Below are positions 14,769 through 40,810 of a stretch of 40,810 bases of DNA, piece after piece (the stretch's first letter is position 1; each line of letters opens with the position of its first letter). Source of the stretch: a virus. The position numbers were made by a program, and so were the translations under genes. The DNA lies in UHGV virus genome UHGV-0204427. One strand, 5' to 3'. The notes under the pieces are model-generated. The model did not search any database. It was given only the letters and a program-made list of their open reading frames with translations, and was not told the DNA's origin.

Positions 14769-16882
14769 CATATAAAATCACAGTCATCACGGATGGAACG
14801 TCCTACCCGTTATATCAGCCAGGAGCGGATGACCTGCAGTTGATAGACCCGGTTATCACATTGGAACTCAATTCGTCTGGGAGTTTGTCATTTGAGGTAC
14901 CGCCAGAACACCCATTTCGCGATAAGATTCAGACCTTATCATCCGAATTCTTTGTATACCAGAACGGGGATGAGATATTCCGCGGTCGCAATACCGGAAG
15001 CGAGGAAGATTATTATAAGACAGGCTCCATTACTTGTGAGGGTGACCTTGCATATCTGCTTGACAGTATCCAGCGGCCTTATGACCATACGGGAAACATG
15101 GATGAATTTTTCCAGCATGTACTAATTATCCACAACGGGCAGGTCGAGGAAAGAAAACAGTTTCAGTGCGGTACCGTCAATGTAACTGATAATACGTCAG
15201 ATGCACAGCGGATAAACGACACCTGCAGTACTACACTGGAATGCCTGAAAGGGCAGCTGGTTGAACCTCATGGGGGCTACCTGAGGACGCGCCTGGGGGA
15301 TAACGGGAAACGGTATCTTGACTATATGACGGATTTCGGGGGATACAATTCCCAACCCATCCGGTTCAGAGAGAACCTGCTGGATATTGGAAAGAAAAAG
15401 GATGCCACGACAATCAGAACCGCGCTTATTCCGTATGGCGCCCAACAGGAAATGACAAATGAGGACGGTACAAGCAGCACAAAGAGGGTGGATATCACAT
15501 CTGTTAACGAGGGTAAGGATTACATTTATGATCAGGAAGCCGTCAGCAGATATGGTTGGATATATGCCAGCGTCACATGGGATGACATCACGGAGCCCTC
15601 TGTGTTGTTGGAAACTGCTAAGGCCTATCTGGAAGATACGGTAAAGCTTCCCGAGACGTTGGAACTTACTGCGGTTGATCTAAGTCTTGTCCAGACGGAT
15701 GTGGCTGCCTTGAAACTTGGATACTGGACCCGCGTCGTCTCAGAGCCACACGGCCTGGAAGGGGAATACCTACTTACTAAAAAAGTCCTGCACCTCACGG
15801 AGCCTGAGAGGGACACAATTGTACTGGGGGGAACGGTTACCAGCATTACTGGGTCCACAAGCAAGGACATGGCCGCAATCAGCCTAAAGGTGCAGGAAAT
15901 ATCCAGAAAGACTACCACGGAACTGGTGGAACGCATAAACAATGCAACAAGGCTTATCACAGGCGGCCTGGGTGGGTATGTGATGATTGGGATGGCTGAT
16001 GACGGTCATCCGGACGAGATTGTGATCATGGATACCCCATCAGTTGATACGGCCAGGAATGTCATCCGGCTGAACAAGAACGGTTTTGGTTTTTCCAGTA
16101 CCGGGTACAACGGCATATTTGAGAATGCATGGACGATAGACGGGCATTTGAATGCTGGATTCATTACAGCTGGCACCATGCTTGCAGACCGGATACGTGG
16201 CGGGATACTGGAGCTTGGTGGGACAGGGCTTGGTAAGGATGGCGTGCTCATAATAAAGAATGCAAACGGTAAAGAAGTTGCCAGGTTTGATAAAAACGGA
16301 GTATCCATTATTGAAGGGACGATAAACATTACATCTGGAAGTATCAATCTTGGAGCGTTTCATGTAACTTCTGGCGGAGTACTGACATTGGATGGTACCA
16401 GTAATAATACGACCGTAGGAGCTAACCTTGTCAATTGTAATACGCTCCGGGTTGCGGACCAAATAATGGCCAGCGGGGCATCGTTTAACATAGGTGGTAT
16501 GTATAGTACGGGCAGTTATGTCCACGGCAGTTTCATGGGTGACTTCCATGGCTCATTCTATGAGACATCGGACCGTAGGAAAAAGAAGCATATAAAGCCG
16601 CTCAAAGAAGGGCAGGCCCTGGCACTGGTGCTGGGACTTAAACCCATATCATTTGTAATGAAGGAAACAGGTGAGCCTATGCTGGGATTTGTAGCGCAGG
16701 ACGTGGAGAAGCTGCAGAAGCAGTTAGGAATCCACCTGCCGCTGGCATCCATGGATGAGGATGGGTATTATTGCATCCCATACATGCATTACATTGCCGT
16801 TTTGACCGGTGCAATCCAGGCCCAGCAGATGCAGATAGACCGTTTAACAAGGGAAAAGAAAGAGGTGATAAACGATGGCTGA
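14765..16882 (+). CDS. tail-associated lysin/Tal (prophage-tail N-domain) with fibre-like extension and C-terminal Peptidase_S74 intramolecular chaperone
   Basis: ATGA overlap with Dit. 705 aa. C-terminal 'SDRRKKKHIKPL…GFVAQDVEKL' matches the autocleaving chaperone motif. Confidence 0.7.
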   Translation: MTYKITVITDGTSYPLYQPGADDLQLIDPVITLELNSSGSLSFEVPPEHPFRDKIQTLSSEFFVYQNGDEIFRGRNTGSEEDYYKTGSITCEGDLAYLLDSIQRPYDHTGNMDEFFQHVLIIHNGQVEERKQFQCGTVNVTDNTSDAQRINDTCSTTLECLKGQLVEPHGGYLRTRLGDNGKRYLDYMTDFGGYNSQPIRFRENLLDIGKKKDATTIRTALIPYGAQQEMTNEDGTSSTKRVDITSVNEGKDYIYDQEAVSRYGWIYASVTWDDITEPSVLLETAKAYLEDTVKLPETLELTAVDLSLVQTDVAALKLGYWTRVVSEPHGLEGEYLLTKKVLHLTEPERDTIVLGGTVTSITGSTSKDMAAISLKVQEISRKTTTELVERINNATRLITGGLGGYVMIGMADDGHPDEIVIMDTPSVDTARNVIRLNKNGFGFSSTGYNGIFENAWTIDGHLNAGFITAGTMLADRIRGGILELGGTGLGKDGVLIIKNANGKEVARFDKNGVSIIEGTINITSGSINLGAFHVTSGGVLTLDGTSNNTTVGANLVNCNTLRVADQIMASGASFNIGGMYSTGSYVHGSFMGDFHGSFYETSDRRKKKHIKPLKEGQALALVLGLKPISFVMKETGEPMLGFVAQDVEKLQKQLGIHLPLASMDEDGYYCIPYMHYIAVLTGAIQAQQMQIDRLTREKKEVINDG

Positions 16883-17795
16883 TATCAGTAAAGAGATTAA
16901 TGACTTCCGGAAGGCCGTGAAAGGCAAGGATGTCCGTGGCAGTATGATTTCGCTGGCAGAGAAGGTCAATGAAGAGGTTGAAACCAATACAGCCCATGTA
17001 GATGAGGCGGTGGACACAGCCAACGGAGCAAGTCAGACAGCTAACCAGACATCAAAGGATGCGCAGAAAGCCATCACAGAAGCCAATATAACCCTACAGG
17101 CCGCCAATGCAGCCAAGGAGTCGGCACAAGAGTCCTCTATGGCTGCGAGTGTATCAGCCGCCGCAGCTGCGGATTCGGAAGGAGCAGCAGGAGAAAGTGC
17201 GGCATCTGCCGCGGCAAGTGCAAAAGCAGCGGAAGATATAGCGGCGGGGTTAGGCGGATTTGACGGGACGGCCACATCCGTCAAGGCAACTGATACGCAG
17301 GGGCTTGTCGTGGCTGCCGGAGCGGACAGTAATGCCCAGGCCCTGCTGGATGCGCTGGCCCATAAGGTTGCACTGGAGCTGGTAAGCAATACTGCCCTTA
17401 CCACGAAATTGGCGGATTATGTAGCAAAGACAGACATCGTGCAGGTGGAGTCCACAGCTACAAATAAGGTCCCATCCAGCGCGTACCTTAAGCAGGTAAA
17501 AGATAGCATAGATAGCAATTTATCTAATGCAAATGCAGATATTAACCCGCTTAAATCCAATTATGTTGATAATATGGATAACAATATCGTTAATAAGGTC
17601 AATATTGTGTTATGGAACTCTGATACTGCAAGCACTCCATTTAAAACAGGGAATACCATCTATGGCAATGGTTTTTGTATTACTTACAGTTCTGGTGACC
17701 AGTGGCTATGCCAGTTAGCTATGGCCGTAGGCGATCCAAACCTGTTTACACGCTATAGACGCGAGGGAGTATGGAGTGGATGGACTACCAAATGA
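16875..17795 (+). CDS. tail fibre / receptor-binding protein with Ala/Ser-rich coiled stalk and distinct C-terminal head
   Basis: Low-complexity 'AAAADSEGAAGESAASAAASAKAAEDIAAG' stalk. Position after Tal. The C-terminal ~90 aa is lower in GC. Confidence 0.5.
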   Translation: MADISKEINDFRKAVKGKDVRGSMISLAEKVNEEVETNTAHVDEAVDTANGASQTANQTSKDAQKAITEANITLQAANAAKESAQESSMAASVSAAAAADSEGAAGESAASAAASAKAAEDIAAGLGGFDGTATSVKATDTQGLVVAAGADSNAQALLDALAHKVALELVSNTALTTKLADYVAKTDIVQVESTATNKVPSSAYLKQVKDSIDSNLSNANADINPLKSNYVDNMDNNIVNKVNIVLWNSDTASTPFKTGNTIYGNGFCITYSSGDQWLCQLAMAVGDPNLFTRYRREGVWSGWTTK

Positions 17796-17842
17796 TTATA
17801 TGATTATATTTGAGTTGAAGAGAAAATAAGGGGGTGTCATGA

Positions 17843-18067
17843 ATGAATACTTTTTTTATAAAGCATCATAAAAAGATTGATGCATATTGCATGACAGCCA
17901 TTTTATATTTTACAATGATCTTAGTTATGATTTCTGTAACCTCTTTTATTAAAAATGAAGGCGTTAGAGTAGCTATAGTGCTTATAGCCCCTATTATTTT
18001 TTCTCGTAAAAGATACAGGGTAAAAATCAATTTATATATACATCGTGTGTTCCGATTGGAAGAATAG
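17843..18067 (+). CDS. small membrane protein (2 TM) in AT-rich island
   Basis: RBS AAGGGGGTG. Hydrophobic 'AILYFTMILVMISV' and 'VAIVLIAPIIF'. Followed by a strong terminator. Confidence 0.45.
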   Translation: MNTFFIKHHKKIDAYCMTAILYFTMILVMISVTSFIKNEGVRVAIVLIAPIIFSRKRYRVKINLYIHRVFRLEE

Positions 18068-18089
18068 AAAAACTATTCTTCTTTTTTTT
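18059..18089 (+). terminator. rho-independent terminator GAAGAATAG-aaaaa-CTATTCTTC + T8
   Basis: Perfect 9-bp stem plus TTTTTTTT. Confidence 0.6.
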
Positions 18090-18217
18090 CTGTATTTTCT
18101 AATTCGTCAATTTGATTAGATTGTCCATTATAGTGAAAAAGTACATCGGAAATCAATTCGGGATTTTTTACATCTAATTCTTTGATGAGAGTTGCTATTT
18201 GTGATAAGAAGAAAATG

Positions 18218-18244
18218 AATCGTAACCTGCAAATCAGGTCTCTA
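18218..18244. repeat. 27-bp direct repeat copy 1 (aatCGTAACCTGCAAATCAGGTCTCTA)
   Basis: Matches 18728-18754 at 24/27 positions. Flanks a ~480-bp AT-rich segment. Confidence 0.6.
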
Positions 18245-18727: not shown

Positions 18728-18754
18728 AATTGTAACCTACAAATCAGGTCCCTA
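18728..18754. repeat. 27-bp direct repeat copy 2 (aatTGTAACCTACAAATCAGGTCCCTA)
   Basis: See copy 1. Confidence 0.6.
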
Positions 18755-20746: not shown

Positions 20747-20899
20747 ACTGTGAAAATGATGTTATAGTAATTAAAACTGGTGGAATAGGATGCTTACTAA
20801 TAAAGCAAGGACAATGGGGGAGGGGAGGCAAATATAATATGCGGGCAAGTAATTCATATTATGTATATAGATAAGGTTAATAAAATTTCCAATAACGGA

Positions 20900-22506: not shown

Positions 22507-23874
22507 TTATAGCTGCTTTAGCTTGATATTCACATTATCATCATCAATTATGATGCGGTCTATAATCATAGTCAGGCAGGCCCTTTTTTCATCCAAGCTT
22601 CCTGCATCAGAAAGCGACATCAAGGTATCTCTCGCGGTTATCATTTCAGCAAGAGTTGTTACCGGCACATTTTTGGGTTTTGATATATTCAGTAGTGCTT
22701 CCTTCTCTTTATTAAGCGCATCCATTTTTTCCTGTATGGTTTCGATTGGGATTCCGCTGACTTGATACAGGTCTATCAGTTTTCCAATCTGCTTATCTAT
22801 CTCATTTAGGCGGATTGAATAATCTGTGACCGGGACCGGAACAGGGTGTCCACTCTTTAATTTAGAAAAGTCTAAACGCATTATGTAATCTAACACCAGT
22901 CTGTCTAATTCCTCTATCTTCCATTTTTTATTCTTGCAGTTGGGGTCAACAATGTACTTTTTATCTCCCTTGGTACGACTATAACAAGAATAATTACCAT
23001 GCTCACCGTGGAACCGTGCCCCACACTTACCACAATAGACGAGGCTTGAAAGAAGGGTGCTCGCCTTAAACGGAGACCGCTTGAAGGTATCAGAGGCCCT
23101 CCTGGAGCTGTTAAACAGGTCCTGTACCTGCCGGAATGTTTCTTCGGATATGATTGGTTGATGATTGCCTTGATAGGCTACCCCCTTAAACTTTACTTTT
23201 CCTATATACAGTTCGTTTTTAAGGACATTCCGGACTAAGACCTCACTGCTCCATCCACCATATTTTTGTTGCATATACTGCCAACAGTTGTGTATGGAAT
23301 ACCCCTTTAAAAACCGATTATACAAATCCTTGACCTGTATGGCCTCATAGTCATTTATTATGAGCTCCCCGTCAATATAGTCATAGCCGGTTGGTGCGTT
23401 GCCACCCCCATGAAAATATCCATTCTTGGCTCTGCCGATGCGTCCCATGGTAAAACGCTCCGTAATCTGGTCTTTCTCCAGCTGGGCAAAGACCGACAGT
23501 ATTCCAATCATGGCCCGGCCAAATGGGGTGGATGTATCAAAATTCTCATTCACAGAAACAAAATCCACATTCTTGGCCAGAAAACAATCCTCAATCAACA
23601 TGAGAGTATCCTTCTGGCTTCTGGATAAGCGGTCAAGCTTGTAAACAATGACAGAATCTATCAATCCTTTGTCGATGTCTTGGAGCATCTGCTGCAGGGC
23701 AGGCCTATTAACGTTTCCGCCGGAATAGCCGCCGTCGGTATATATCTTGACTATCTGAATATCTTTTGCTTTGCAGTATGCCTTCAAACGGTCAGTCTGT
23801 TCCTCTATACTATAGTTTTCTAACTGATTGTCCGTAGATACACGGACATAACATGCGCCTTTAATCATATTCAT
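22507..23874 (-). CDS. large serine recombinase (phage integrase type: resolvase catalytic domain + recombinase domain + zinc ribbon + coiled coil); start possibly the 3rd codon ATG at 23868
   Basis: 'YVRVSTDNQ' catalytic Ser motif. 'SRSQKDTL'. Cys pairs 'CGKCGARF…C'. 455 aa. Confidence 0.9.
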   Translation of the reverse strand: MNMIKGACYVRVSTDNQLENYSIEEQTDRLKAYCKAKDIQIVKIYTDGGYSGGNVNRPALQQMLQDIDKGLIDSVIVYKLDRLSRSQKDTLMLIEDCFLAKNVDFVSVNENFDTSTPFGRAMIGILSVFAQLEKDQITERFTMGRIGRAKNGYFHGGGNAPTGYDYIDGELIINDYEAIQVKDLYNRFLKGYSIHNCWQYMQQKYGGWSSEVLVRNVLKNELYIGKVKFKGVAYQGNHQPIISEETFRQVQDLFNSSRRASDTFKRSPFKASTLLSSLVYCGKCGARFHGEHGNYSCYSRTKGDKKYIVDPNCKNKKWKIEELDRLVLDYIMRLDFSKLKSGHPVPVPVTDYSIRLNEIDKQIGKLIDLYQVSGIPIETIQEKMDALNKEKEALLNISKPKNVPVTTLAEMITARDTLMSLSDAGSLDEKRACLTMIIDRIIIDDDNVNIKLKQL

Positions 23875-24245: not shown

Positions 24246-24389
24246 GATGTCCCCTCCTTGTGAAATAGTATTTTCTATATATTGATACTTGAAACAGAAC
24301 ATACGTTCTGATATAATAAAAATCAAACCTAAGTTTGTGTATGACCTTCACTGCTACTGCGGATACTATTCGCATGGAGGTACACGCTC

Positions 24390-25644: not shown

Positions 25645-25854
25645 ATGTTACTTATTTTATTGTCTGTCCTGGTTTCAACGATTACCGCAGCCATCGTCAC
25701 GATTAAGATAACGGCCGCGGTAAAAAGAGAACTAATGACCTACGTCGAAGAAATGTGTGACCTGAATATTGAACAATCACAAAAAATAAAAAACTATGCT
25801 CTGAAAACGGTTGAAATGCTTGTTCGCAATATCAATCAAGACAAGCCTGTATAA
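25645..25854 (+). CDS. 69-aa small membrane protein
   Basis: Hydrophobic N-terminus 'LLILLSVLVSTITAAIVTI'. RBS GAGGTGAG. Confidence 0.4.
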   Translation: MLLILLSVLVSTITAAIVTIKITAAVKRELMTYVEEMCDLNIEQSQKIKNYALKTVEMLVRNINQDKPV

Positions 25855-26590
25855 GGGCTGTACCGAAAGGCGTTAATCCACATATTTTTCCAACAATTTC
25901 AGAATGAAGATATTTCCCCATTTTGATACGTTCTTCTTCGCACTGTTTATAGAAATCTGAATTTTTAAATGGAGAGTCATCAGCGGGGTGAACGAGAGCG
26001 TCATCATCAAATGCAAGTATGCCTAACCGCATCAGTGATGAAAGTGAAAAAGATATATACCTTGCTTCGTGCTGGTTCGGATAAGTATCAAAAGTATAGG
26101 GAACTTTGTTATAAAAGTCATTCTCGCTATTATTGAAATATGTGTATGTAATCAATCGTTCTGGTTTGTTGCTGACATAGTATTTTAAAATTTTAGCATC
26201 ATAAGGGCTCATTTGTTTTAGTGTCTCTGAGAAAGATGGATGTATGAGTTCCTTATAGTCACTATGGCATGAACGTGCTATTAGGTTAGCAAACAGATTT
26301 CTAAGTTCTTCGGAATTGATGCAAGAATCTACATTATCTAATGCAAGCATTATTGTTTGATAATCAGGTTCTATAAGCTTTTCAGATGGAATTTGTTCTA
26401 TACAGAGTTTTAATCGCGCCTCCAATTCAATTAAGCCGTATTTTTCATAGAGACGCCTTTTCTCAGCTTTATAGGATATTGAGCCAAACTTAAGATAGAT
26501 GGCGTCTTTGATGAGAGTTCCAATAGACATTGCTGGTTCGTTAGTAAGGTTTTTAATTGCATTATCAACACAGTTAGGCATGAGTTCCAT
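25832..26590 (-). CDS. Abi-alpha-like (DUF4393) abortive-infection/exclusion candidate, ~252 aa
   Basis: 'IKNLTNEPAMSIGTLI…RNLFANLIARSCHSDYKELIHPSFSETLKQMSPYDAKILKY' recalls the DUF4393 core. Minus-strand gene in the lysogeny region. Confidence 0.5.
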   Translation of the reverse strand: MELMPNCVDNAIKNLTNEPAMSIGTLIKDAIYLKFGSISYKAEKRRLYEKYGLIELEARLKLCIEQIPSEKLIEPDYQTIMLALDNVDSCINSEELRNLFANLIARSCHSDYKELIHPSFSETLKQMSPYDAKILKYYVSNKPERLITYTYFNNSENDFYNKVPYTFDTYPNQHEARYISFSLSSLMRLGILAFDDDALVHPADDSPFKNSDFYKQCEEERIKMGKYLHSEIVGKICGLTPFGTALIQACLD

Positions 26591-26729
26591 AATAATATTC
26601 CCTTCACTAAATACTCGGCGCTGCAACGCCTGTAAGTACAGTATAGGTCAGGGGGAGGAAAAAGACAAGACGGACAACGTAAGAAGTACAACCAGTACCA
26701 CATACAATTTACCAGAGAGGGGTGGTGAT

Positions 26730-35049: not shown

Positions 35050-36419
35050 AGTTTGTACCGCATGATTACCAGAGGTACTGCATCAACCGTATGATATCAG
35101 ATCCTGCCCTGGGCCTGTTTCTTGACATGGGACTCGGTAAGACCGTGATTACCCTGACCGCGGTCAATGACCTTCGGTATAACCGTTTTGAGGTCGGTAA
35201 GTCATTAGTAATAGCACCCAAGAAAGTGGCGGAGGATACCTGGATCCGAGAGGCCGGGAAGTGGGACCATCTGAAACTGCTTCGGATTATCCCCGTGCTT
35301 GGCAGCAGAGAGAAGCGGATAAAGGCCCTTAATACCCCGGGAGATGTGTATGTGCTGAGCCGGGATAATGTGCAATGGCTTGTGGACCATTACCGCAACG
35401 CCTGGCCGTTTGACACGGTAATCATAGATGAGCTGTCCAGTTTCAAGAACCCGCAAGCCAAGCGTTTCAAGAGCCTGTGCCTGGTGAGGAACCACATACG
35501 CCGGATTTATGGGCTGACCGGTACACCGGCGCCAAACGGCCTTCTGGACCTGTGGTCCCAGATATACCTGCTTGACCAGGGACGGCGGCTGGGGACAAGG
35601 ATAGGGCAGTACCGGGAAGAATATTTCTCGCCAGCATCCAGAAACCGGGACACCATCTTTTCATACGCGCCGCTTCCAGGGGCAGACCGGATTATCCAGC
35701 AGCGGATATCCGACATCTGCATCAGCCTGCAGGCAAAGGATTACCTGCAGCTTCCAGAGCGAATTGACAATGTAATACATGTGCGTCTTAATCCCAGGGA
35801 GCAGGCAGCATATGAGAAGTTTGAGCGTGAGATGCTTCTGGAAGTGGACGAGGCCACACTGGATGCCGGGTCAGCAGCGGTGCTTTCCGGTAAGCTCCTG
35901 CAGTTCTGTAATGGGGCCGTATATGACAGTGACAAGCATGCAGTGGAGGTCCATGGCGAGAAGCTGGAGGTATTCAAGGAGATTGTGGAAGGCAGCCAGG
36001 GGAAACCGATACTGGTATTCTACAACTTCCAGCATGACAAGTCCCGTATTATCAAGTGCCTTCCGAAGGGACTTAGGATAGCGGAGCTTAAGGGGCCGGG
36101 CGTAATCAGCCAGTGGAATGAGAGGAAGATAGATGTACTCCTGGCGCATCCGGCCAGTGCCGCTTACGGACTCAACCTCCAGGCGGGTGGAAACATCATC
36201 GTATGGTTTGGCCTTAACTGGTCCCTGGAACTGTATCAACAGGCAAACGCCAGGCTGCACAGGCAGGGACAGACGGATAATGTTATTATCCACCACTTGA
36301 TTGTATCCGGGGGGATGGATGAGGATGTCATGGCAGCGCTGCAGAATAAGCAGGTTACGCAGGATTCCCTGCTTGCGGCCCTTAAGGCAAGGATAGCAAA
36401 AGTGAAAGGGGAAACGTGA
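35046..36419 (+). CDS. SNF2-family DEAD/DEAH helicase
   Basis: Motif I 'DMGLGKT'. Motif II 'IIDELS'. Motif VI 'QANARLHRQGQ'. Confidence 0.85.
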   Translation: MKFVPHDYQRYCINRMISDPALGLFLDMGLGKTVITLTAVNDLRYNRFEVGKSLVIAPKKVAEDTWIREAGKWDHLKLLRIIPVLGSREKRIKALNTPGDVYVLSRDNVQWLVDHYRNAWPFDTVIIDELSSFKNPQAKRFKSLCLVRNHIRRIYGLTGTPAPNGLLDLWSQIYLLDQGRRLGTRIGQYREEYFSPASRNRDTIFSYAPLPGADRIIQQRISDICISLQAKDYLQLPERIDNVIHVRLNPREQAAYEKFEREMLLEVDEATLDAGSAAVLSGKLLQFCNGAVYDSDKHAVEVHGEKLEVFKEIVEGSQGKPILVFYNFQHDKSRIIKCLPKGLRIAELKGPGVISQWNERKIDVLLAHPASAAYGLNLQAGGNIIVWFGLNWSLELYQQANARLHRQGQTDNVIIHHLIVSGGMDEDVMAALQNKQVTQDSLLAALKARIAKVKGET

Positions 36420-38074
36420 TGGAGGAAGTTAAGAAAACAGGATTGACCTTTATAGATACCAGGCGGCTGGCCAATATATCCTACAAGGATATCAAAAATG
36501 GTTTTGTAGGCTTCGGCTATTACCTGAAAATCATCCGGGATGAAAAGCTGTGGCAGGGACAAGGTTATGACAGCTTTAACGAGTTTTTGGGTGATGAATA
36601 CGGCAAGGACAAGTCTTGGGCGTCCAGGTGTATCAACCTGTATGATAAATTCGGAATCCCGGTAGAGCCAGGGGAACTGCCGAGGCTGGAAGATGCATAT
36701 GAGTCGTACAATGTCAGCCAGCTGATAGAGATGATACCTATGCAGGAGGAGTTGCAGGAGCAGGTCACCCCGGATATGTCGGTCAAAGCCATCCGGGCAC
36801 TGAAGCCAAGAAAAGAGAAGAAAGTTGCGACCGTCGCAACCCCGGAGCAAGAACCAGAGCCCCACCAGGAAGCCCAGACGGAGCCAGAGCCGGAACCGCC
36901 CCGTCCGGAAAAGTCTGGGAAGTGCATCCACCGGCCAGAATTTGACTGCACCCTGGAGGAGGCCCATAAGCTCATCCCGGGAACCGGGGAGGACTGCAGC
37001 CGGGTGTGCTGCTGGGAATGCGTCAGGCGCGGTGACTGTGAGTTGGAATGTTATAGTTCGCAGCGGCGCCCGGAGCATCTGGAACCCCCAAAGACAAAGC
37101 CGGATTGTCTGCCGCTGGATACCGCGGATACGCACCGGGAGGAAACGGCCATCCCTTCCCAGAAGGAATGTGTTCTGGACTTCTATCAGCATCACATGTC
37201 CAAGCCGTGTGCGCAGGCCGCCAATGACGGGAACGTGAAACTGCTGAGGCAGGAGCTGATAATCAATCACGGAGAACCCCATAACAGCGGGTCAACGGAG
37301 TACGGCTTTTATCAATGCGGCCCGGAACGGATTCATTTTCAGGATAATATGTGCGAGACATTTCTGAGCTTGACCTGGGGGAAGTACGTAAAGGAATTAC
37401 TCAGCCTCTTGGGGAGTGCTGAGGATGAGGCATCAGAACATGAAAACGATGTTCCAGGTATGCCAGAATCCCAGGATACCGTGATTGATGGTGAATTCAC
37501 GGAGATTTCAGAAACGGAGGAGGACATCCGGGCCCCGGAGGAACCCATGACCGAGCTGCAGATTGCCCAGGATGAACTGGAGCGTGCCAAAAAGCTGCTT
37601 AATGATGGGCTAAAATGTGATGTGGATGAAAATGACATACATATCCGCCGGCTGAAAATAAAGGTTTGCGCCCTGGCCAGCTATGTGTGCGATTTGGATG
37701 ACATCGTGAACCCTCCGCCGAAGCCAGAGCAGCCGGAACTGCCGGTGCTTAAGAATAATGACCAACGGGCTGCCTTCGTGGATGCATATGAGACGTGGCC
37801 GTTATGGATTGAGACGAAACAGACCGGGGAACGGTACTACCGGTATGACCTGGAGGACGGCACCAGCATGGTGGTGAAGGTATACCACGCAAGGATATTC
37901 GATGGATATGCGTCAGGAAGCTATGAGGCCAAATATCATGATGGTTACGGCCGGCATGAGTACTATCTGCTGCGGGATGGGAAGTTCTTCCGGGATTGCG
38001 ATACGAACCGGTCATTGCTGATTGAGAAACTGAAAGAGATTCAGAAGGTGAAAAAAGGCTGTAACCAGAATTAG
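36416..38074 (+). CDS. 552-aa hypothetical: N-terminal globular domain, acidic/Pro-Glu linker, Cys-rich segment (…CIHRPEFDC…CSRVCCWECVRRGDCELEC…), C-terminal domain
   Basis: GTG/ATG start 36416/36419 with RBS GAAAGGGG. No confident family assignment. Confidence 0.5.
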   Translation: MMEEVKKTGLTFIDTRRLANISYKDIKNGFVGFGYYLKIIRDEKLWQGQGYDSFNEFLGDEYGKDKSWASRCINLYDKFGIPVEPGELPRLEDAYESYNVSQLIEMIPMQEELQEQVTPDMSVKAIRALKPRKEKKVATVATPEQEPEPHQEAQTEPEPEPPRPEKSGKCIHRPEFDCTLEEAHKLIPGTGEDCSRVCCWECVRRGDCELECYSSQRRPEHLEPPKTKPDCLPLDTADTHREETAIPSQKECVLDFYQHHMSKPCAQAANDGNVKLLRQELIINHGEPHNSGSTEYGFYQCGPERIHFQDNMCETFLSLTWGKYVKELLSLLGSAEDEASEHENDVPGMPESQDTVIDGEFTEISETEEDIRAPEEPMTELQIAQDELERAKKLLNDGLKCDVDENDIHIRRLKIKVCALASYVCDLDDIVNPPPKPEQPELPVLKNNDQRAAFVDAYETWPLWIETKQTGERYYRYDLEDGTSMVVKVYHARIFDGYASGSYEAKYHDGYGRHEYYLLRDGKFFRDCDTNRSLLIEKLKEIQKVKKGCNQN

Positions 38075-38096
38075 GATTTTGTGAAAGAAGGTAACT

Positions 38097-38312
38097 ATGA
38101 AAGATATAAAGTGTTCTGAATGCGAACATGCTAAATGGTCAGAGTATTTTAAGGCGTATACCTGTGAACACCCAGGCTGCAAGGATGCGCCGATATTTAA
38201 AGGTAAGACGCACCCAAGATGCTGCCCTATAGTTAATCCAAGAGGCTATTATCATAGACCAACTAAGGGGCTTGGGACATTACCAAAAACACAAGTATAT
38301 TTTCATGTTTAG
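38097..38312 (+). CDS. 71-aa Cys-rich small protein (CSECEH…C…C…CC)
   Basis: RBS GAAGG. Eight Cys. Confidence 0.4.
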   Translation: MKDIKCSECEHAKWSEYFKAYTCEHPGCKDAPIFKGKTHPRCCPIVNPRGYYHRPTKGLGTLPKTQVYFHV

Positions 38313-38354
38313 TTCATCTAAACTGATATTTGTGCTACGAAGGGAGATTAAATC

Positions 38355-38597
38355 ATGTGGAAGATTATATTTACATACCCCGATGGTGTTAAGGTGAAAC
38401 TGACTAACAGTTCCATTCCGATGGATAAGCGTCTTGCTAACAAGTATTATGATATCTACGGCTATAACTCTGATGGCGGGATATTCCAACAGTATCCAAA
38501 GAAAAAGTACAGGCCTATGGCTATGGCCACTGTGGTGGACATCCTGAATGCTGATGGAGATTTAGAGAAAGAGATATTGATTGATGCGGATGATTAG
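38355..38597 (+). CDS. 80-aa hypothetical (low GC)
   Basis: RBS AGGGAG 8 nt upstream. Confidence 0.4.
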   Translation: MWKIIFTYPDGVKVKLTNSSIPMDKRLANKYYDIYGYNSDGGIFQQYPKKKYRPMAMATVVDILNADGDLEKEILIDADD

Positions 38598-38606
38598 GAG
38601 GCTGGC

Positions 38607-38807
38607 ATGAGAAAGAAAGGCAGTAAGCAGTCCAAGGTCAGCCGCATCGACCGCAGCAAGGCCCTGGCCGCCCAGGCCGACGAGGCAATCAAAGAGCGCA
38701 TCCGGACGGCGCCGGCCTACATGTACACTAGCCTGTGCCCGGTTCTGGAGCTACGCCGGCCGCCGAAGGGAGTGATTGTACGTGGCATCAAGACCTGTGT
38801 ACTATGA
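38607..38807 (+). CDS. 66-aa basic hypothetical (high GC)
   Basis: RBS AGGAGG 7 nt upstream. Confidence 0.35.
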   Translation: MRKKGSKQSKVSRIDRSKALAAQADEAIKERIRTAPAYMYTSLCPVLELRRPPKGVIVRGIKTCVL

Positions 38808-39060
38808 CTTGTATGATTGTGGCCAATACGACGGCCGGTACAGAGCAGCGGAGCTGATGGTAATGTTGGGTATCCGGCACCGGCAGCAGATAGAGCATTA
38901 CAGTGATGTGGGTATCCTGTACCAAAAGCGATATACCTTTGTGAGGGTGGAGGATGGGAACGCGTCAGAACTGGCCGATGAATGGGACAGGGTGACGCAA
39001 GCGTTGAAGGGATGTGGGTACGATTTGGGAAGAATACCGATTGTGGTAAAACGAGTATAG
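38776..39060 (+). CDS. 94-aa hypothetical overlapping the previous gene by 32 nt (TTG start)
   Basis: RBS GAAGGGAG. An in-frame stop lies immediately upstream, so not a simple fusion. Confidence 0.3.
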   Translation: MYVASRPVYYDLYDCGQYDGRYRAAELMVMLGIRHRQQIEHYSDVGILYQKRYTFVRVEDGNASELADEWDRVTQALKGCGYDLGRIPIVVKRV

Positions 39061-39069
39061 ATAAAACAA

Positions 39070-39201
39070 GCCGGGGGAGCACCCCGGCAAATAAAAACAG
39101 CAGGACAGAACGTATGTGCGAAAAAATAAGCGGTGGACACCCGCCAAGATGTTTACCACCGCCAAACTAATACGTCTGAGCATATTATATCTGACTCAGA
39201 C
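39070..39201. promoter_or_regulatory. cluster of three inverted repeats upstream of the tyrosine recombinase: GCCGGGG-gagca-CCCCGGC (39070-88), GCGGTGG-N19-CCACCGC (39130-62), GTCTGAG-N14-CTCAGAC (39174-201)
   Basis: Read directly. Candidate terminator, recombination site or operator. Confidence 0.35.
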
Positions 39202-39245
39202 AGCTAAATCAACAGGAAAATAATACCAGGACTGAGGAGGGTAAT

Positions 39246-40271
39246 ATGATGGCAGAACAGGTGAATATAGATCGAGTAATCATGCAGGTAATGGATAATG
39301 TGACGCAGGTGGTTGAGGAACAGGAACGGCTGAATGAGGTCAAACAGATATTGTATATGTGCCTGTCCAGGTTTCAAATATTTGAGGAGGAAACAGCGCT
39401 TTCTGTGGACGTGGACCGCACGGTGGAGTACTTGAAACAATATCTTCTGCAGATGAAGTTGGATGGATGTACTGACGGGAGCATTCAGGGGTATAAGAAT
39501 AACATTAAGAACATGCTGAATTATATCAATAAGAATGTGACTGAGATTACATACCAGGACCTCAAGGGATACATGGCCTATGGGAAGCTGGTCAGAAAAT
39601 GGAAAGACAGGACTTACAACAGTCAGCTGATATCCATTCGTAGTTTTTTCTCATTCCTTTATGCGGAGGATATGCTTCCGGATAATCCGGCCAAGAAACT
39701 TAAGGAAACTAAGGTGGAATACCGGATAGGTCCCACACTGCAACCCGAGCAGCGAGAAATGGTTAGATGCGCATGTGCGGATGAGCTGGAGCTGGCAATA
39801 TGTGACATGTTATATGTGACAGGGATACGTGTGTCTGAGTTGTGCGGCATGAATCAGTCAGACGTTGACTTTAATCGTAAGACGGCAATCGTATATGGGA
39901 AGGGGCGTAAGGAACGCCAGGTATGCCTCAATGGACAGGTAGCCCTGCACCTTTGGAGATATCTTCAAAGTCGGAATGACGACAATCCAGCCTTATTTGT
40001 TTCCCCACATGGACAATGCAGGCGCATCGGGGCCCAGACGGTTAGGAATATCCTGAAACGAATTAAAGAGAGGGACGAAGAGTTGGCGGATGTCAAGGTC
40101 ACCCCGCATGTGTTCCGCCGTACTGTGGGAACCGATATGATTAACAAAGGGGCGCCGGCAGAGATAGTGAAGGAGGTACTGGGCCATGTCAAGATTGATA
40201 CAACGCTTAAGTGCTATGCAGCTATTAGTAAGGACACCGTGCGGCAGGCACATGCACGCTTTGTAGGATAG
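39246..40271 (+). CDS. tyrosine site-specific recombinase (XerC/D-phage integrase family) with N-terminal SAM-like domain
   Basis: 'TGIRVSELCG' (Arg I). 'HVFRRTVGTDM' (H-x-x-R). 'LGHVKIDTTLKCYAAIS' (His…Tyr nucleophile). Confidence 0.8.
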   Translation: MMAEQVNIDRVIMQVMDNVTQVVEEQERLNEVKQILYMCLSRFQIFEEETALSVDVDRTVEYLKQYLLQMKLDGCTDGSIQGYKNNIKNMLNYINKNVTEITYQDLKGYMAYGKLVRKWKDRTYNSQLISIRSFFSFLYAEDMLPDNPAKKLKETKVEYRIGPTLQPEQREMVRCACADELELAICDMLYVTGIRVSELCGMNQSDVDFNRKTAIVYGKGRKERQVCLNGQVALHLWRYLQSRNDDNPALFVSPHGQCRRIGAQTVRNILKRIKERDEELADVKVTPHVFRRTVGTDMINKGAPAEIVKEVLGHVKIDTTLKCYAAISKDTVRQAHARFVG

Positions 40272-40283
40272 GAGGATTCAAAA

Positions 40284-40736
40284 ATGGCAGATAAGAGCAT
40301 ATTAAAACAATATGCAAGCATGATAAAAGAGGCAGAAGACGAAGAACGCAGAATACGGAATTTAGAAGCAGAAATTAGGTCTATGCGGCCGCTTGATAGA
40401 GAAGTTACAGATGTTGTGACAAGAGGAAAACGAGGAAAGAAACCACTCGGAACCTGTGTGATTCGTGGAGAGAACGACCATTCGGCCATCAATCGGAAAC
40501 GTGCCAGGCTTAGGGAGAGGAAAGCAAAAAAGGAGCTTCATGTATCCAGGATTGAAATGATGGTTGCCGATGCGGAAGAATATATTTACAGCATTGATGA
40601 TAGCGAATTAAGACGTATTACAGAATTTTACTGTATTGACAGAAAAAACTGGGATGAAGTAGCCGAAGCAATGGGAGAGGGGTATACTGCTGAGGCTTGT
40701 AAACAAAAATTTTCCAGATTTATGCGCGTCAAGTAA
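40284..40736 (+). CDS. putative late-gene transcriptional activator (ArpU/RinA-like, C-terminal sigma-70 region-4-like HTH)
   Basis: C-terminus 'LRRITEFYCIDRKNWDEVAEAMGEGYTAEACKQKF' is HTH-like. Position immediately before the late promoter and packaging genes. Confidence 0.45.
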   Translation: MADKSILKQYASMIKEAEDEERRIRNLEAEIRSMRPLDREVTDVVTRGKRGKKPLGTCVIRGENDHSAINRKRARLRERKAKKELHVSRIEMMVADAEEYIYSIDDSELRRITEFYCIDRKNWDEVAEAMGEGYTAEACKQKFSRFMRVK

Positions 40737-40738
40737 AA

Positions 40739-40772
40739 TTGTCACGTTTGTCACGCTGATATGTGATATAAT
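40739..40772 (+). promoter_or_regulatory. activator-type late promoter: direct repeats TTGTCACG (40739-46, 40748-55), no -35, extended -10 TGaTATAAT (40764-72)
   Basis: Read directly at the 3' edge of the window, pointing toward the packaging genes if the sequence is circular. Confidence 0.45.
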
Positions 40773-40810
40773 TTAAAATGAGAAAAGTGTAAGCATTTAG
40801 GCATCCAGCA

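What the first reader, a model, noticed from the sequence alone, without database searches (positions are those of the whole stretch)
39060..40271. A second recombinase: tyrosine recombinase sitting between the replication and late-regulator genes, preceded by three inverted repeats
The genome already has a serine integrase next to the repressor. This 341-aa XerC/D-like tyrosine recombinase (R…HxxR…Y motifs intact) lies just upstream of the late activator. It is preceded by a 190-nt non-coding region with three distinct inverted repeats, including GTCTGAG-N14-CTCAGAC resembling a recombinase core site. Possibilities are a dimer or multimer-resolution (Xer-like) system for a plasmid-like prophage state, a DNA invertase controlling late or tail genes, or a redundant integrase. 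Two recombinases of different families in one 40-kb phage is unusual.
Basis: partly seen in the sequence, partly recalled or inferred. Interest (0 to 1): 0.55.

Follow-up and report, generated by a model that had tools for sequence, protein, structure and literature searches.

The report
Tail-fibre switching recombinase, switch decayed
The second recombinase of this gut phage most likely flips the end of the tail-fibre gene to change host recognition, as in many related phages, but in this genome the flippable segment 20 kb away has lost one of its two sites.

Summary
ORF 39246-40271 is an intact Xer-like tyrosine recombinase, and the three inverted repeats upstream are real.

Relatives of this recombinase (28-58% identical) sit inside or near invertible tail-fibre cassettes. 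These are bounded by a conserved 13-bp site, A[A/G]ATAGCAATTTA, which encodes I(N/D)SNL.

The window's tail-fibre gene (16875-17795) carries that site at 17510-17522. Homology to related fibres breaks exactly there. Thirteen related contigs carry both this recombinase leader and an intact two-cassette switch. One of them has a 99% identical recombinase.

In the window the second site is reduced to 9 of 13 bases (18192-18200) and the silent cassette is replaced, so the switch looks locked.

The 185-nt upstream region is not a recombination site. It is a leader conserved in 59 distinct sequences. It holds a minus-strand promoter (TTGATT-17-TATAAT), whose -10 box lies inside the third repeat, and two minus-strand terminators, which are the first two repeats. 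These would make an antisense RNA of about 58 nt. It also holds a LexA-box-like palindrome.

The recombinase usually forms an operon with the late activator.

Verdict: a new variant of a known kind (Rin, Gin and Cin fibre inversion).

The parts
39246..40271 (+). Tyrosine recombinase (341 aa), Xer-like, with no arm-binding domain and a family-specific helical N-terminal stretch of about 60 aa. Inferred to be a trans-acting tail-fibre cassette invertase.
   Evidence: Domain and structure matches. Conserved catalytic residues. Homologues inside or near tail-fibre inversion loci. Co-occurrence with intact switches on the same contigs.
39070..39088 (-). Hairpin 1 (GCCGGGG-N5-CCCCGGC). It is a minus-strand intrinsic terminator, followed on the minus strand by TTGTTTTATC. 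It would end the long form of the antisense transcript.
   Evidence: The terminator scan calls it on the minus strand in the window, L003, L210 and L025. Across 59 leaders it has 421 Watson-Crick pairs, no mismatch and several arm variants.
39107..39121 (.). LexA (Cheo)-box-like palindrome AGAACGTATGTGCGA. It is an invariant element of the leader. Its right half is always GTAC or GTGC, never the consensus GTTC.
   Evidence: In shufflon-type relatives the same box abuts the outermost crossover site.
39130..39162 (-). Hairpin 2, the terminator hairpin of a minus-strand small RNA. It has an 8-bp outer stem and an inner stem with U.G pairs, followed on the minus strand by TTATTTTTT (39129-39120).
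   Evidence: Terminator scan. It is more stable on the minus strand in 54 of 59 leaders (-19.3 against -14.5 kcal/mol). RNAalifold on the minus strand finds 14 pairs; 3 show compensatory changes and two invariant U.G pairs are impossible on the plus strand.
39120..39177 (-). Predicted antisense small RNA of about 58 nt. The start is inferred about 7 nt after the -10 box. A long form would run to about 39060. It is complementary to the recombinase mRNA leader.
   Evidence: Inferred from the promoter plus terminators. It has not been observed as RNA.
39174..39201 (+). Inverted repeat 3 (GTCTGAG-N14-CTCAGAC). Its loop or spacer holds the minus-strand -10 box. It probably also folds as a hairpin in the plus-strand recombinase leader.
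   Evidence: The arms co-vary between lineages. Internal mismatches are G.T 23 against A.C 2 on the plus strand.
39184..39212 (-). Sigma-70-type promoter TTGATT-17-TATAAT on the minus strand (-10 box 39189-39184, -35 box 39212-39207).
   Evidence: Promoter scan. The same call is made in L003 and L210. TTGnnn at 17-18 nt from TATAAT occurs in 59 of 59 leaders.
40284..40736 (+). Probable late-gene activator (150 aa), starting 12 nt after the recombinase stop, so probably co-transcribed.
   Evidence: PHROG 36. In about 32 of 47 distinct recombinase units the next gene, 6-15 nt away, encodes a 135-160-aa protein; the representatives scanned are of Sigma70_r4 or DUF1492 type. terS and terL follow.
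16875..17795 (+). Tail-fibre or receptor-binding protein gene (306 aa) downstream of the TMP, Dit and Tal genes. The constant part is aa 1-212 and the exchangeable C-terminal cassette is aa 217-306.
   Evidence: Gene order and weak tail-fibre PHROG matches. Homologues match either aa 1-216 or aa 210-306.
17510..17522 (+). Intact crossover site AGATAGCAATTTA, encoding I212-D-S-N-L216.
   Evidence: Nucleotide homology to relatives ends at 17522. The site is followed by a 94-aa in-frame cassette.
18188..18200 (-). Decayed partner site AAATAGCAA|CTCT. Nine of 13 bases are kept (18192-18200), and the conserved outer flank gtgataagaa is retained. In the site's frame only 23 codons follow before a stop.
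17796..18187 (.). Sequence that replaces the silent cassette. It has no homologue in related switches and contains a 74-aa membrane-protein-like ORF at 17843-18067.

Best explanation
The gene encodes a catalytically intact tyrosine recombinase of a family that inverts C-terminal cassettes of phage tail-fibre (receptor-binding) genes. Recombination takes place at a 13-bp site, A[A/G]ATAGCAATTTA, lying in the codons for I(N/D)SNL.

In this phage lineage the recombinase gene is not next to its target. It sits 19-22 kb away, at the end of the early region, in an operon with the late activator, and would act in trans on the fibre gene. Expression just before late genes would produce progeny with mixed fibre tips.

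In this particular genome one of the two inverted sites has decayed and the silent cassette has been replaced. The fibre is therefore probably locked in one state, and the recombinase has no complete substrate in cis.

The 185-nt upstream region is a regulatory leader, not a core site. A strong divergent promoter would make an antisense RNA of about 58 nt, ended by hairpin 2 and backed up by hairpin 1, that is complementary to the recombinase leader. A LexA-box-like palindrome lies between the two terminators.

Shown: protein family, conserved catalytic residues, sites, cassettes, co-occurrence, and the promoter and terminator signals. Inferred: that this protein performs the inversion, that the antisense RNA exists, and that the leader gates recombinase and late-activator expression.
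For: 1. The catalytic residues are invariant across the family.

2. Homologues lie inside multi-site inversion loci. In L046/L022 (54% identical) there are four sites in alternating orientation around the recombinase, one of them inside a 272-aa minus-strand gene. In L023 (51%) a 28-nt inverted repeat flanks 527 nt that holds two convergent ORFs, both beginning SLNSNLGN. L053, L054, L057, L058, L133, L137 and L152 show the same pattern, as do L230-232. In L211/L212 (58%) a perfect 15-17-nt inverted repeat lies in the fibre gene 6 kb from the recombinase.

3. Of 117 exact sites, 98 are followed in the site's frame by an ORF of at least 60 aa; the median is 99 aa.

4. The window fibre carries the site. 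Protein and DNA homology to relatives break exactly at it.

5. Most related fibre loci, 23 of the 33 retrieved, have the plus-strand site paired with a minus-strand site about 420-850 nt downstream. The same cassette occurs in either slot in different genomes, at 100% and 99.6% identity. Contig L245 ends exactly at the site.

6. Thirteen contigs carry both the leader (with the recombinase gene itself detected in 12) and a fibre locus with the crossover site. A complete two-site switch is held for 10 of these; the other three contigs end at or just after the site. One contig with both sites has a 99% identical recombinase.

7. The only other recombinase in the window is a large serine integrase.
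Against: - No inversion has been observed directly. The evidence comes from comparing genomes, and the contigs sharing both features are related phages, so the co-occurrences are not independent.
- The window itself lacks a complete second site, so the protein may have no role here, or a different one.
- The operon with the late activator and the elaborate leader are not explained by an invertase role alone.
- The function of inverted repeat 3 and of the LexA-like box is unproven.
Confidence: 0.7

Rival explanations
1. Xer/Cre-like resolvase: the recombinase resolves dimers or multimers of a circular or plasmid-like phage genome at the upstream repeat GTCTGAG-N14-CTCAGAC.
For: The protein is Xer-like. 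There is one palindromic 28-bp element next to the gene. Only one site per genome is needed for resolution (established for Xer/dif and Cre/loxP).
Against: The palindrome's length (24-30 bp) and arm sequences vary between lineages, while the family's 13-bp site is constant. It contains an invariant promoter -10 box with a -35 box at fixed spacing. Its mismatches are G.T on one strand, which points to RNA pairing. The phage has a serine integrase and a LexA-controlled switch typical of an integrating prophage.
Confidence: 0.05
2. Second integrase: the recombinase integrates the phage at an alternative bacterial site, using an attP in the upstream region.
For: PHROGs and public annotations call relatives 'integrase'. 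In L211 the same protein as in L212 lies 55 nt from a phage-bacterium junction.
Against: No arm-binding domain is found. In every locus carrying the leader, the leader is continuous with phage genes on both sides. The L211 junction falls at the centre of a 42-bp element with palindromic ends, just after the serine integrase gene of L212. That fits a serine-integrase attP.
Confidence: 0.05
3. Domesticated DNA-binding regulator, as MrpR is in SPbeta: the protein binds the upstream repeat and controls the antisense promoter and late-gene entry without recombining DNA.
For: There is a precedent. SPbeta has a serine integrase plus a tyrosine-recombinase-fold repressor (PMC10516654). Here the palindrome overlaps a promoter and the gene is in an operon with the late activator.
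Against: All catalytic residues are invariant down to 35% identity, whereas MrpR has lost recombinase function (PMC10516654). The palindrome varies while the protein family's known site does not.
Confidence: 0.07
4. Trans-acting invertase for other targets, such as host phase-variable loci or the fibre switches of co-resident prophages. This would be in the manner of RecV or Tsr-type global invertases, and the phage's own switch would be dispensable.
For: The gene and leader are intact and 99% identical to relatives although the phage's own switch has decayed. The 13-bp site is shared by many different phages.
Against: No such target could be examined. Within the window there is no other copy with 1 mismatch or fewer.
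Confidence: 0.1

Closest known systems
Rin shufflon of Bifidobacterium and Eggerthella prophages (PMC6109161; PMC8778435)
   Same: A phage tyrosine recombinase without an arm-binding domain. Short crossover sites precede alternative C-terminal cassettes of the receptor-binding protein. A separate integrase is present elsewhere in the genome.
   Different: - Rin lies next to its cassettes and uses asymmetric 8-11-bp rix sites (TTCCCTAACCC, ttccgtat). It is found in Actinobacteria phages.
- Here the site is a 13-bp sequence with short palindromic ends inside the coding motif I(N/D)SNL.
- The hosts are probably Lachnospiraceae; the few homologues that carry a source name are from Lacrimispora and Anaerosporobacter, and a relative lies in a Lacrimispora sphenoides genome.
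- In the window lineage the gene is about 20 kb from the switch, behind a conserved leader and fused to the late activator.
Gin/G segment of Mu, Cin/C segment of P1, Min of p15B
   Same: Inversion of a segment holding two or more convergent cassettes swaps the tail-fibre C-terminus and so the host range.
   Different: Those enzymes are serine invertases that need an enhancer and Fis. Their genes sit next to the segment.
Rci and the R64 plasmid shufflon
   Same: A tyrosine recombinase produces multiple inversions among sites in alternating orientation that separate C-terminal cassettes. This matches the four-site loci L046 and L053.
   Different: Rci acts on the pilV adhesin of a conjugative plasmid. 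Its sfx sites are 19 bp with a 7-bp core plus a 12-bp arm. There is no sequence relationship beyond the recombinase fold.
RecV of Clostridioides difficile and Tsr recombinases of Bacteroides (own knowledge)
   Same: Tyrosine recombinases that act in trans on inverted repeats located far from their own gene.
   Different: They flip promoters or regulatory segments of host genes, not coding cassettes of a phage fibre.
XerC/XerD-dif
   Same: These are the closest solved structures and share the same two-domain layout.
   Different: Xer works as a heterodimer on a 28-bp dif site with FtsK control. No dif-like site or partner is present here.
Cis-antisense RNA control, such as lambda paQ and oop, P22 sar, IS10 RNA-OUT (own knowledge)
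   Same: A short antisense transcript, made from a promoter inside or next to the leader of a developmental or recombination gene, ends in its own terminator hairpin.
   Different: There is no sequence relation, and the RNA here is only predicted.

Membership tests
Tyrosine recombinase superfamily (active enzyme) | Catalytic R-K-H-R-H/W-Y residues and a two-domain core-binding plus catalytic fold | tested here: met
   Pfam PF00589 5e-32 plus SAM-like domains. Aligns to XerA, XerC-like and XerD through all motifs. R195, K222, H288, R291, H314 and Y324 are conserved.
Phage fibre-cassette invertase of the Rin/shufflon kind | Inverted short crossover sites, each followed in frame by an alternative C-terminal cassette of a tail-fibre gene | tested here: inconclusive
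   Met in relatives. In the window one site and one cassette are intact (17510-17795). The partner is reduced to 9 of 13 bases and its cassette is lost.
Phage fibre-cassette invertase of the Rin/shufflon kind | Recombinase gene adjacent to the cassettes | tested here: not met
   The window gene lies 19-22 kb from the site. Adjacency holds only in some relatives (L046, L023, L053, L230-232). The distance is 6 kb in L211/L212.
Phage fibre-cassette invertase of the Rin/shufflon kind | Inversion actually occurs at the sites | tested here: inconclusive
   Identical cassettes occupy the expressed or the silent slot in different genomes, and contigs break at sites. No reads were available to show both orientations in one population.
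Phage fibre-cassette invertase of the Rin/shufflon kind | This recombinase, and no other enzyme, performs the inversion | not testable with these tools
   There is only co-occurrence on 13 contigs and the lack of another invertase in the window.
Lambda-type phage integrase | N-terminal arm-binding domain; attP next to the gene; gene at a prophage end | tested here: not met
   No arm-type domain. The gene is internal to phage DNA in all loci carrying the leader.
Xer/dif or Cre/lox-type resolution system | A single conserved core site with fixed arm-spacer-arm geometry near the gene | tested here: not met
   The upstream palindrome varies in length and sequence. It overlaps a promoter and shows strand-specific wobble pairing.
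MrpR-like recombinase-fold repressor | Loss of catalytic function, with DNA binding retained at repeated operators | tested here: not met
   The catalytic residues are invariant. There is only one copy of the palindrome in the genome.
LexA (Cheo box) operator | GAAC-N4-GTTC palindrome overlapping a promoter | tested here: inconclusive
   39108-39119 is GAACGTATGTGC, one mismatch from the consensus. The mismatched base is A or G in 56 of 56 leaders and never T. No plus-strand promoter overlaps the box. A perfect box in canonical promoter context exists at 24297-24308.
Known RNA families (Rfam 15) | Match to a curated covariance model | tested here: not met
   The only hit is a chance-level snoRNA match, E = 3.6.

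The most novel reading that the evidence does not exclude
The conserved leader is a developmental gate not yet described. It consists of a constitutive antisense RNA, a deliberately imperfect LexA-type box and a plus-strand hairpin around the antisense promoter. Together these would decide when the operon 'fibre invertase + late activator' is expressed. Fibre-tip diversification and commitment to late gene expression would then be coupled and tied to SOS or lytic development in a large group of gut Firmicutes phages.
Probability: 0.3. Interest if true: 0.65.

Novelty: new variant of a known kind. Interest (0 to 1): 0.5.

Why it matters
Tail-fibre switching by inversion is classic for Mu and P1. 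With a tyrosine recombinase it has been reported only for a few Actinobacteria prophages.

The data here point to a large family in gut Firmicutes phages, with recombinases 20-100% identical and 59 distinct leaders. The family shares one 13-bp crossover site. This gives a simple sequence handle for finding host-range switches in metagenomes. It also explains why contigs of these phages break at the fibre gene.

The remote, late-activator-linked position of the gene and its conserved antisense leader suggest that switching is timed to the lytic cycle. That is testable.

For this genome, the practical message is that the 'second recombinase' is neither a plasmid-maintenance function nor a second integration function, and that the phage's fibre is probably fixed.

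Tried and rejected
- **Second copy of GTCTGAG-N14-CTCAGAC.** None found with up to 3 mismatches. An 18-nt partial inverted match at 20825-20842 lacks the arms and is no better than other chance pairs.
- **Whole-window repeat search for an invertible segment.** Nothing was found near the recombinase.
- **Rfam.** No family matched.
- **blastn of 38000-40810 against deposited phages.** No match. tblastn found only distant, unannotated or 'integrase'-labelled relatives of 35% identity or less.
- **Genome and metagenome scans with the protein alignment.** These were swamped by the wider family and gave few close relatives, but they later turned out to contain shufflon-type loci.
- **Recombinase as integrase in L211.** Rejected, because the junction lies at the centre of a probable serine-integrase attP.
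- **3' arm of repeat 3 as an anti-Shine-Dalgarno element.** Cognate duplexes are only 1 kcal/mol better than non-cognate ones, so the idea is not supported.
- **RNAalifold on an ungapped alignment of repeat 3.** It recovered only 4 pairs because the arm register differs between lineages. Arm statistics were taken from a per-sequence helix search instead.
- **Leader peptide or minus-strand ORF in the leader.** Not conserved in frame (reading).
Full report
**1. The observation**

ORF 39246-40271 (+) encodes 341 aa. It has a Phage_integrase catalytic domain (5e-32) and an N-terminal SAM-like core-binding domain. Its best solved relatives are archaeal XerC-like and XerA proteins and E. coli XerD (6e-27 to 2e-24), aligned through all catalytic motifs.

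In an alignment of 20 family members reaching down to 35% identity, R195, K222, H288, R291, H314 and Y324 are invariant. The protein is therefore an enzyme under selection, not a dead paralogue.

The large serine integrase (22507-23874, minus strand) and an HTH repressor-like gene are also there.

In two contigs with a 99% identical recombinase, the 150-aa gene that follows it is continued by window genes 1-366, 429-905 and the large terminase. The window is therefore a circularly permuted whole genome, and the recombinase sits at the early/late boundary.

**2. The upstream region is a conserved leader, not a core site**

The same architecture precedes recombinases that are 24-100% identical to this one, in otherwise unrelated gene neighbourhoods.

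A pattern scan for the box plus ATTATA returned 118 loci. About 75 of them have a recombinase homologue starting 36-69 nt downstream. Fifty-nine distinct leaders were analysed. Their shared elements are as follows.

- **Hairpin 1** has 421 Watson-Crick pairs, no mismatch and many arm variants. The terminator scan calls it on the minus strand in the window, L003, L210 and L025.
- **Hairpin 2** is followed by a U-run on the minus strand only. It is more stable on the minus strand in 54 of 59 leaders, -19.3 against -14.5 kcal/mol. RNAalifold on the minus strand gives an 8-bp outer stem plus an inner stem. The inner stem has two invariant U.G pairs that would be C.A on the plus strand, and three pairs show compensatory changes.
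- **The third repeat** encloses an invariant TATAAT on the minus strand. TTGnnn lies 17-18 nt upstream of it in 59 of 59 leaders. The promoter scan reports TTGATT-17-TATAAT at 39212-39184 and the equivalent in L003 and L210.

Taken together, the leader should produce a minus-strand RNA of about 58 nt. It would consist of a 5' tail, the hairpin-2 terminator and a U-run, with hairpin 1 as a back-up terminator. This RNA is antisense to whatever plus-strand transcript carries the recombinase.

The arms of the third repeat differ between lineages but stay complementary. Their internal mismatches are G.T 23 times and A.C twice when read on the plus strand. This suggests that the repeat also folds in the plus-strand leader RNA.

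Between the two terminators lies AGAAC-RTAY-GTRCG, a Firmicutes LexA-box look-alike. Its third-last consensus T is replaced by A or G in 56 of 56 leaders. A perfect box in a textbook position, within the spacer of TTGAAA-17-TATAAT, exists at 24297-24308. LexA control of this phage is therefore plausible, but the role of the leader box is unproven. Rfam has no match.

**3. What relatives of the recombinase do**

In *Lacrimispora sphenoides* (L046/L022, 54% identity) the gene is surrounded by four copies of AAATAGCAATTTA in alternating orientation. One copy lies inside a 272-aa minus-strand gene. Each copy is followed on its own strand by an open cassette.

In L023 (51%) a 28-nt inverted repeat flanks 527 nt that holds two convergent ORFs, both beginning SLNSNLGN.

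The same 13-mer, in two to four alternating copies, surrounds recombinases of 33-38% identity in seven further loci. It also surrounds a 29% identical recombinase in L230-232.

In L211/L212 (58%) the recombinase lies next to a serine integrase, and a perfect 15-17-nt inverted repeat containing CTAAATAG lies in the fibre gene 6 kb away.

Over all loci, 98 of 117 exact sites are followed, in the frame fixed by the site, by an ORF of at least 60 aa; the median is 99 aa.

This is the anatomy of a fibre-tip inversion system. It matches the Rin shufflon described for Bifidobacterium and Eggerthella prophages (PMC6109161, PMC8778435) and, with serine enzymes, Gin, Cin and Min.

**4. The window's own target**

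The 306-aa gene 16875-17795 follows the tape-measure, Dit and Tal genes. It carries AGATAGCAATTTA at 17510-17522, encoding I212-D-S-N-L216.

Its homologues match either residues 1-216 or residues 210-306. Nucleotide homology to 30 related loci stops at 17522.

In 23 of the 33 retrieved relatives a minus-strand copy of the site lies about 420-850 nt downstream, after the flank ttttcttatcac. The cassettes between the sites turn up in either slot in different genomes. L242's silent cassette equals L243's expressed one at 100% identity, and L227's expressed cassette equals L243's silent one at 99.6%. Contig L245 ends exactly at the site.

In the window the outer flank is present and homology resumes at 18192. 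However, the site reads AAATAGCAA|CTCT, and in its frame only 23 codons follow. The 392 nt in between have no counterpart in other switches. The switch therefore appears to have lost its second half.

**5. Link between this recombinase and the switch**

Thirteen viral contigs carry both the leader (the recombinase gene itself was detected in 12 of them) and a fibre locus with the crossover site:

- IMGVR_UViG_3300045988_058295 (recombinase 99% identical, both sites intact)
- IMGVR_UViG_3300045988_072966
- IMGVR_UViG_3300045988_162206
- ten more found through DNA patterns of the leader

A complete two-site switch is held for 10 of the 13. In the other three the contig ends at or just after the site.

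Apart from L230-232, none of the fibre loci retrieved with 4-kb flanks holds a recombinase of this family next to the switch. In those phages the enzyme must therefore act from a distance.

The window has no other candidate besides the large serine integrase. I therefore assign the protein as the trans-acting fibre invertase of this lineage, with confidence about 0.7. The caveats are that no inversion was seen directly and that the co-occurrences are phylogenetically linked.

**6. Why it sits there**

In about 32 of 47 distinct recombinase units the next gene, 6-15 nt downstream, encodes a 135-160-aa protein. The representatives scanned are of Sigma70_r4 or DUF1492 type, the usual late activators of Gram-positive phages. 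In the window it is the 150-aa PHROG-36 regulator.

Several of these phages already carry RusA or RecU, so the recombinase is not filling the junction-resolvase slot.

The likely logic, which is inference, is as follows. The invertase and the late activator are made together late in the early phase. They are gated by the antisense RNA and perhaps by LexA. Replicated genomes would then be flipped just before fibre genes are transcribed and DNA is packaged.

**7. Rivals**

- **Dimer resolution** lacks a fixed-geometry site and any sign of an episomal lifestyle.
- **A second integrase** is contradicted by the missing arm-binding domain and by the internal position of the gene. The one junction next to a family member (L211) falls at the centre of a probable serine-integrase attP.
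- **An MrpR-like repressor role** (PMC10516654) is contradicted by the conserved active site.
- **Action on targets outside the phage** cannot be excluded.

**8. Verdict**

The finding is real and the gene is interesting. It is a member of a known functional kind (fibre-tip inversion) in a new arrangement, and in this genome its substrate has decayed.

The conserved antisense leader and the shared 13-bp site are the parts most worth following up.

Noticed in passing
window 24278-24320: A plus-strand promoter TTGAAA-17-TATAAT has a perfect Cheo/LexA box (GAACATACGTTC, 24297-24308) in its spacer. It lies between the serine-integrase side and a small HTH-like gene. This looks like a host-LexA-controlled early promoter.
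   Followed up: partly
window 18218-18244 and 18728-18754: Two 27-nt direct repeats (89% identical, containing ACCTG-N5-CAGGT) flank a 510-bp segment with a 41-aa (+) and a 76-aa (-) ORF. Relatives L217, L237, L242, L221 and L244 have one repeat and no segment; L243, L214 and L223 have the segment. It is a small insertion or deletion cassette of unknown mechanism.
   Followed up: partly
window 25832-26626 (-): An Abi_alpha abortive-infection gene (Pfam 2e-33) lies in the lysogeny region. It is probably a prophage-encoded defence gene.
   Followed up: no
window 39130-39162; L003 5893-5925; L210 9899-9930: Hairpin 2 of the leader exists in two mirror-image forms. The window type has CCGCCAAG on the plus strand. 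The L003, L017, L209, L210 and L132 type has CTTGGCGG on the plus strand, with different stems. In both forms the U-run is on the minus strand.
   Followed up: partly
window 39107-39121 and 56 related leaders: The LexA-like box never has the consensus T in its right half. It reads GTAC 28 times, GTGC 28 times and GTTC 0 times. This argues for a constraint other than, or in addition to, simple LexA binding.
   Followed up: partly
L212 9943-10000; L211 about 9945: A recombinase of the family lies 58 nt downstream of a serine integrase. The phage/bacterium junction in L211 falls at the centre of a 42-bp element with palindromic ends, ATAGGTT...AACCTAT. This is probably the serine-integrase attP.
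   Followed up: partly
L133, L137, L152, L055, L066 and other 1.5-2.7-kb contigs: Many short genome and metagenome contigs consist of just a family recombinase bounded by AAATAGCAATTTA sites. This is the pattern expected when assemblies break at actively inverting sites.
   Followed up: no
L213 (Clostridium phage phiCs5676-1, record 36127-37173): A cultured [Clostridium] scindens phage has a distantly related (25%) 'integrase' embedded in its early region, a few kb before a 'transcriptional regulator'. This may be the same theme in an isolate that could be tested.
   Followed up: no
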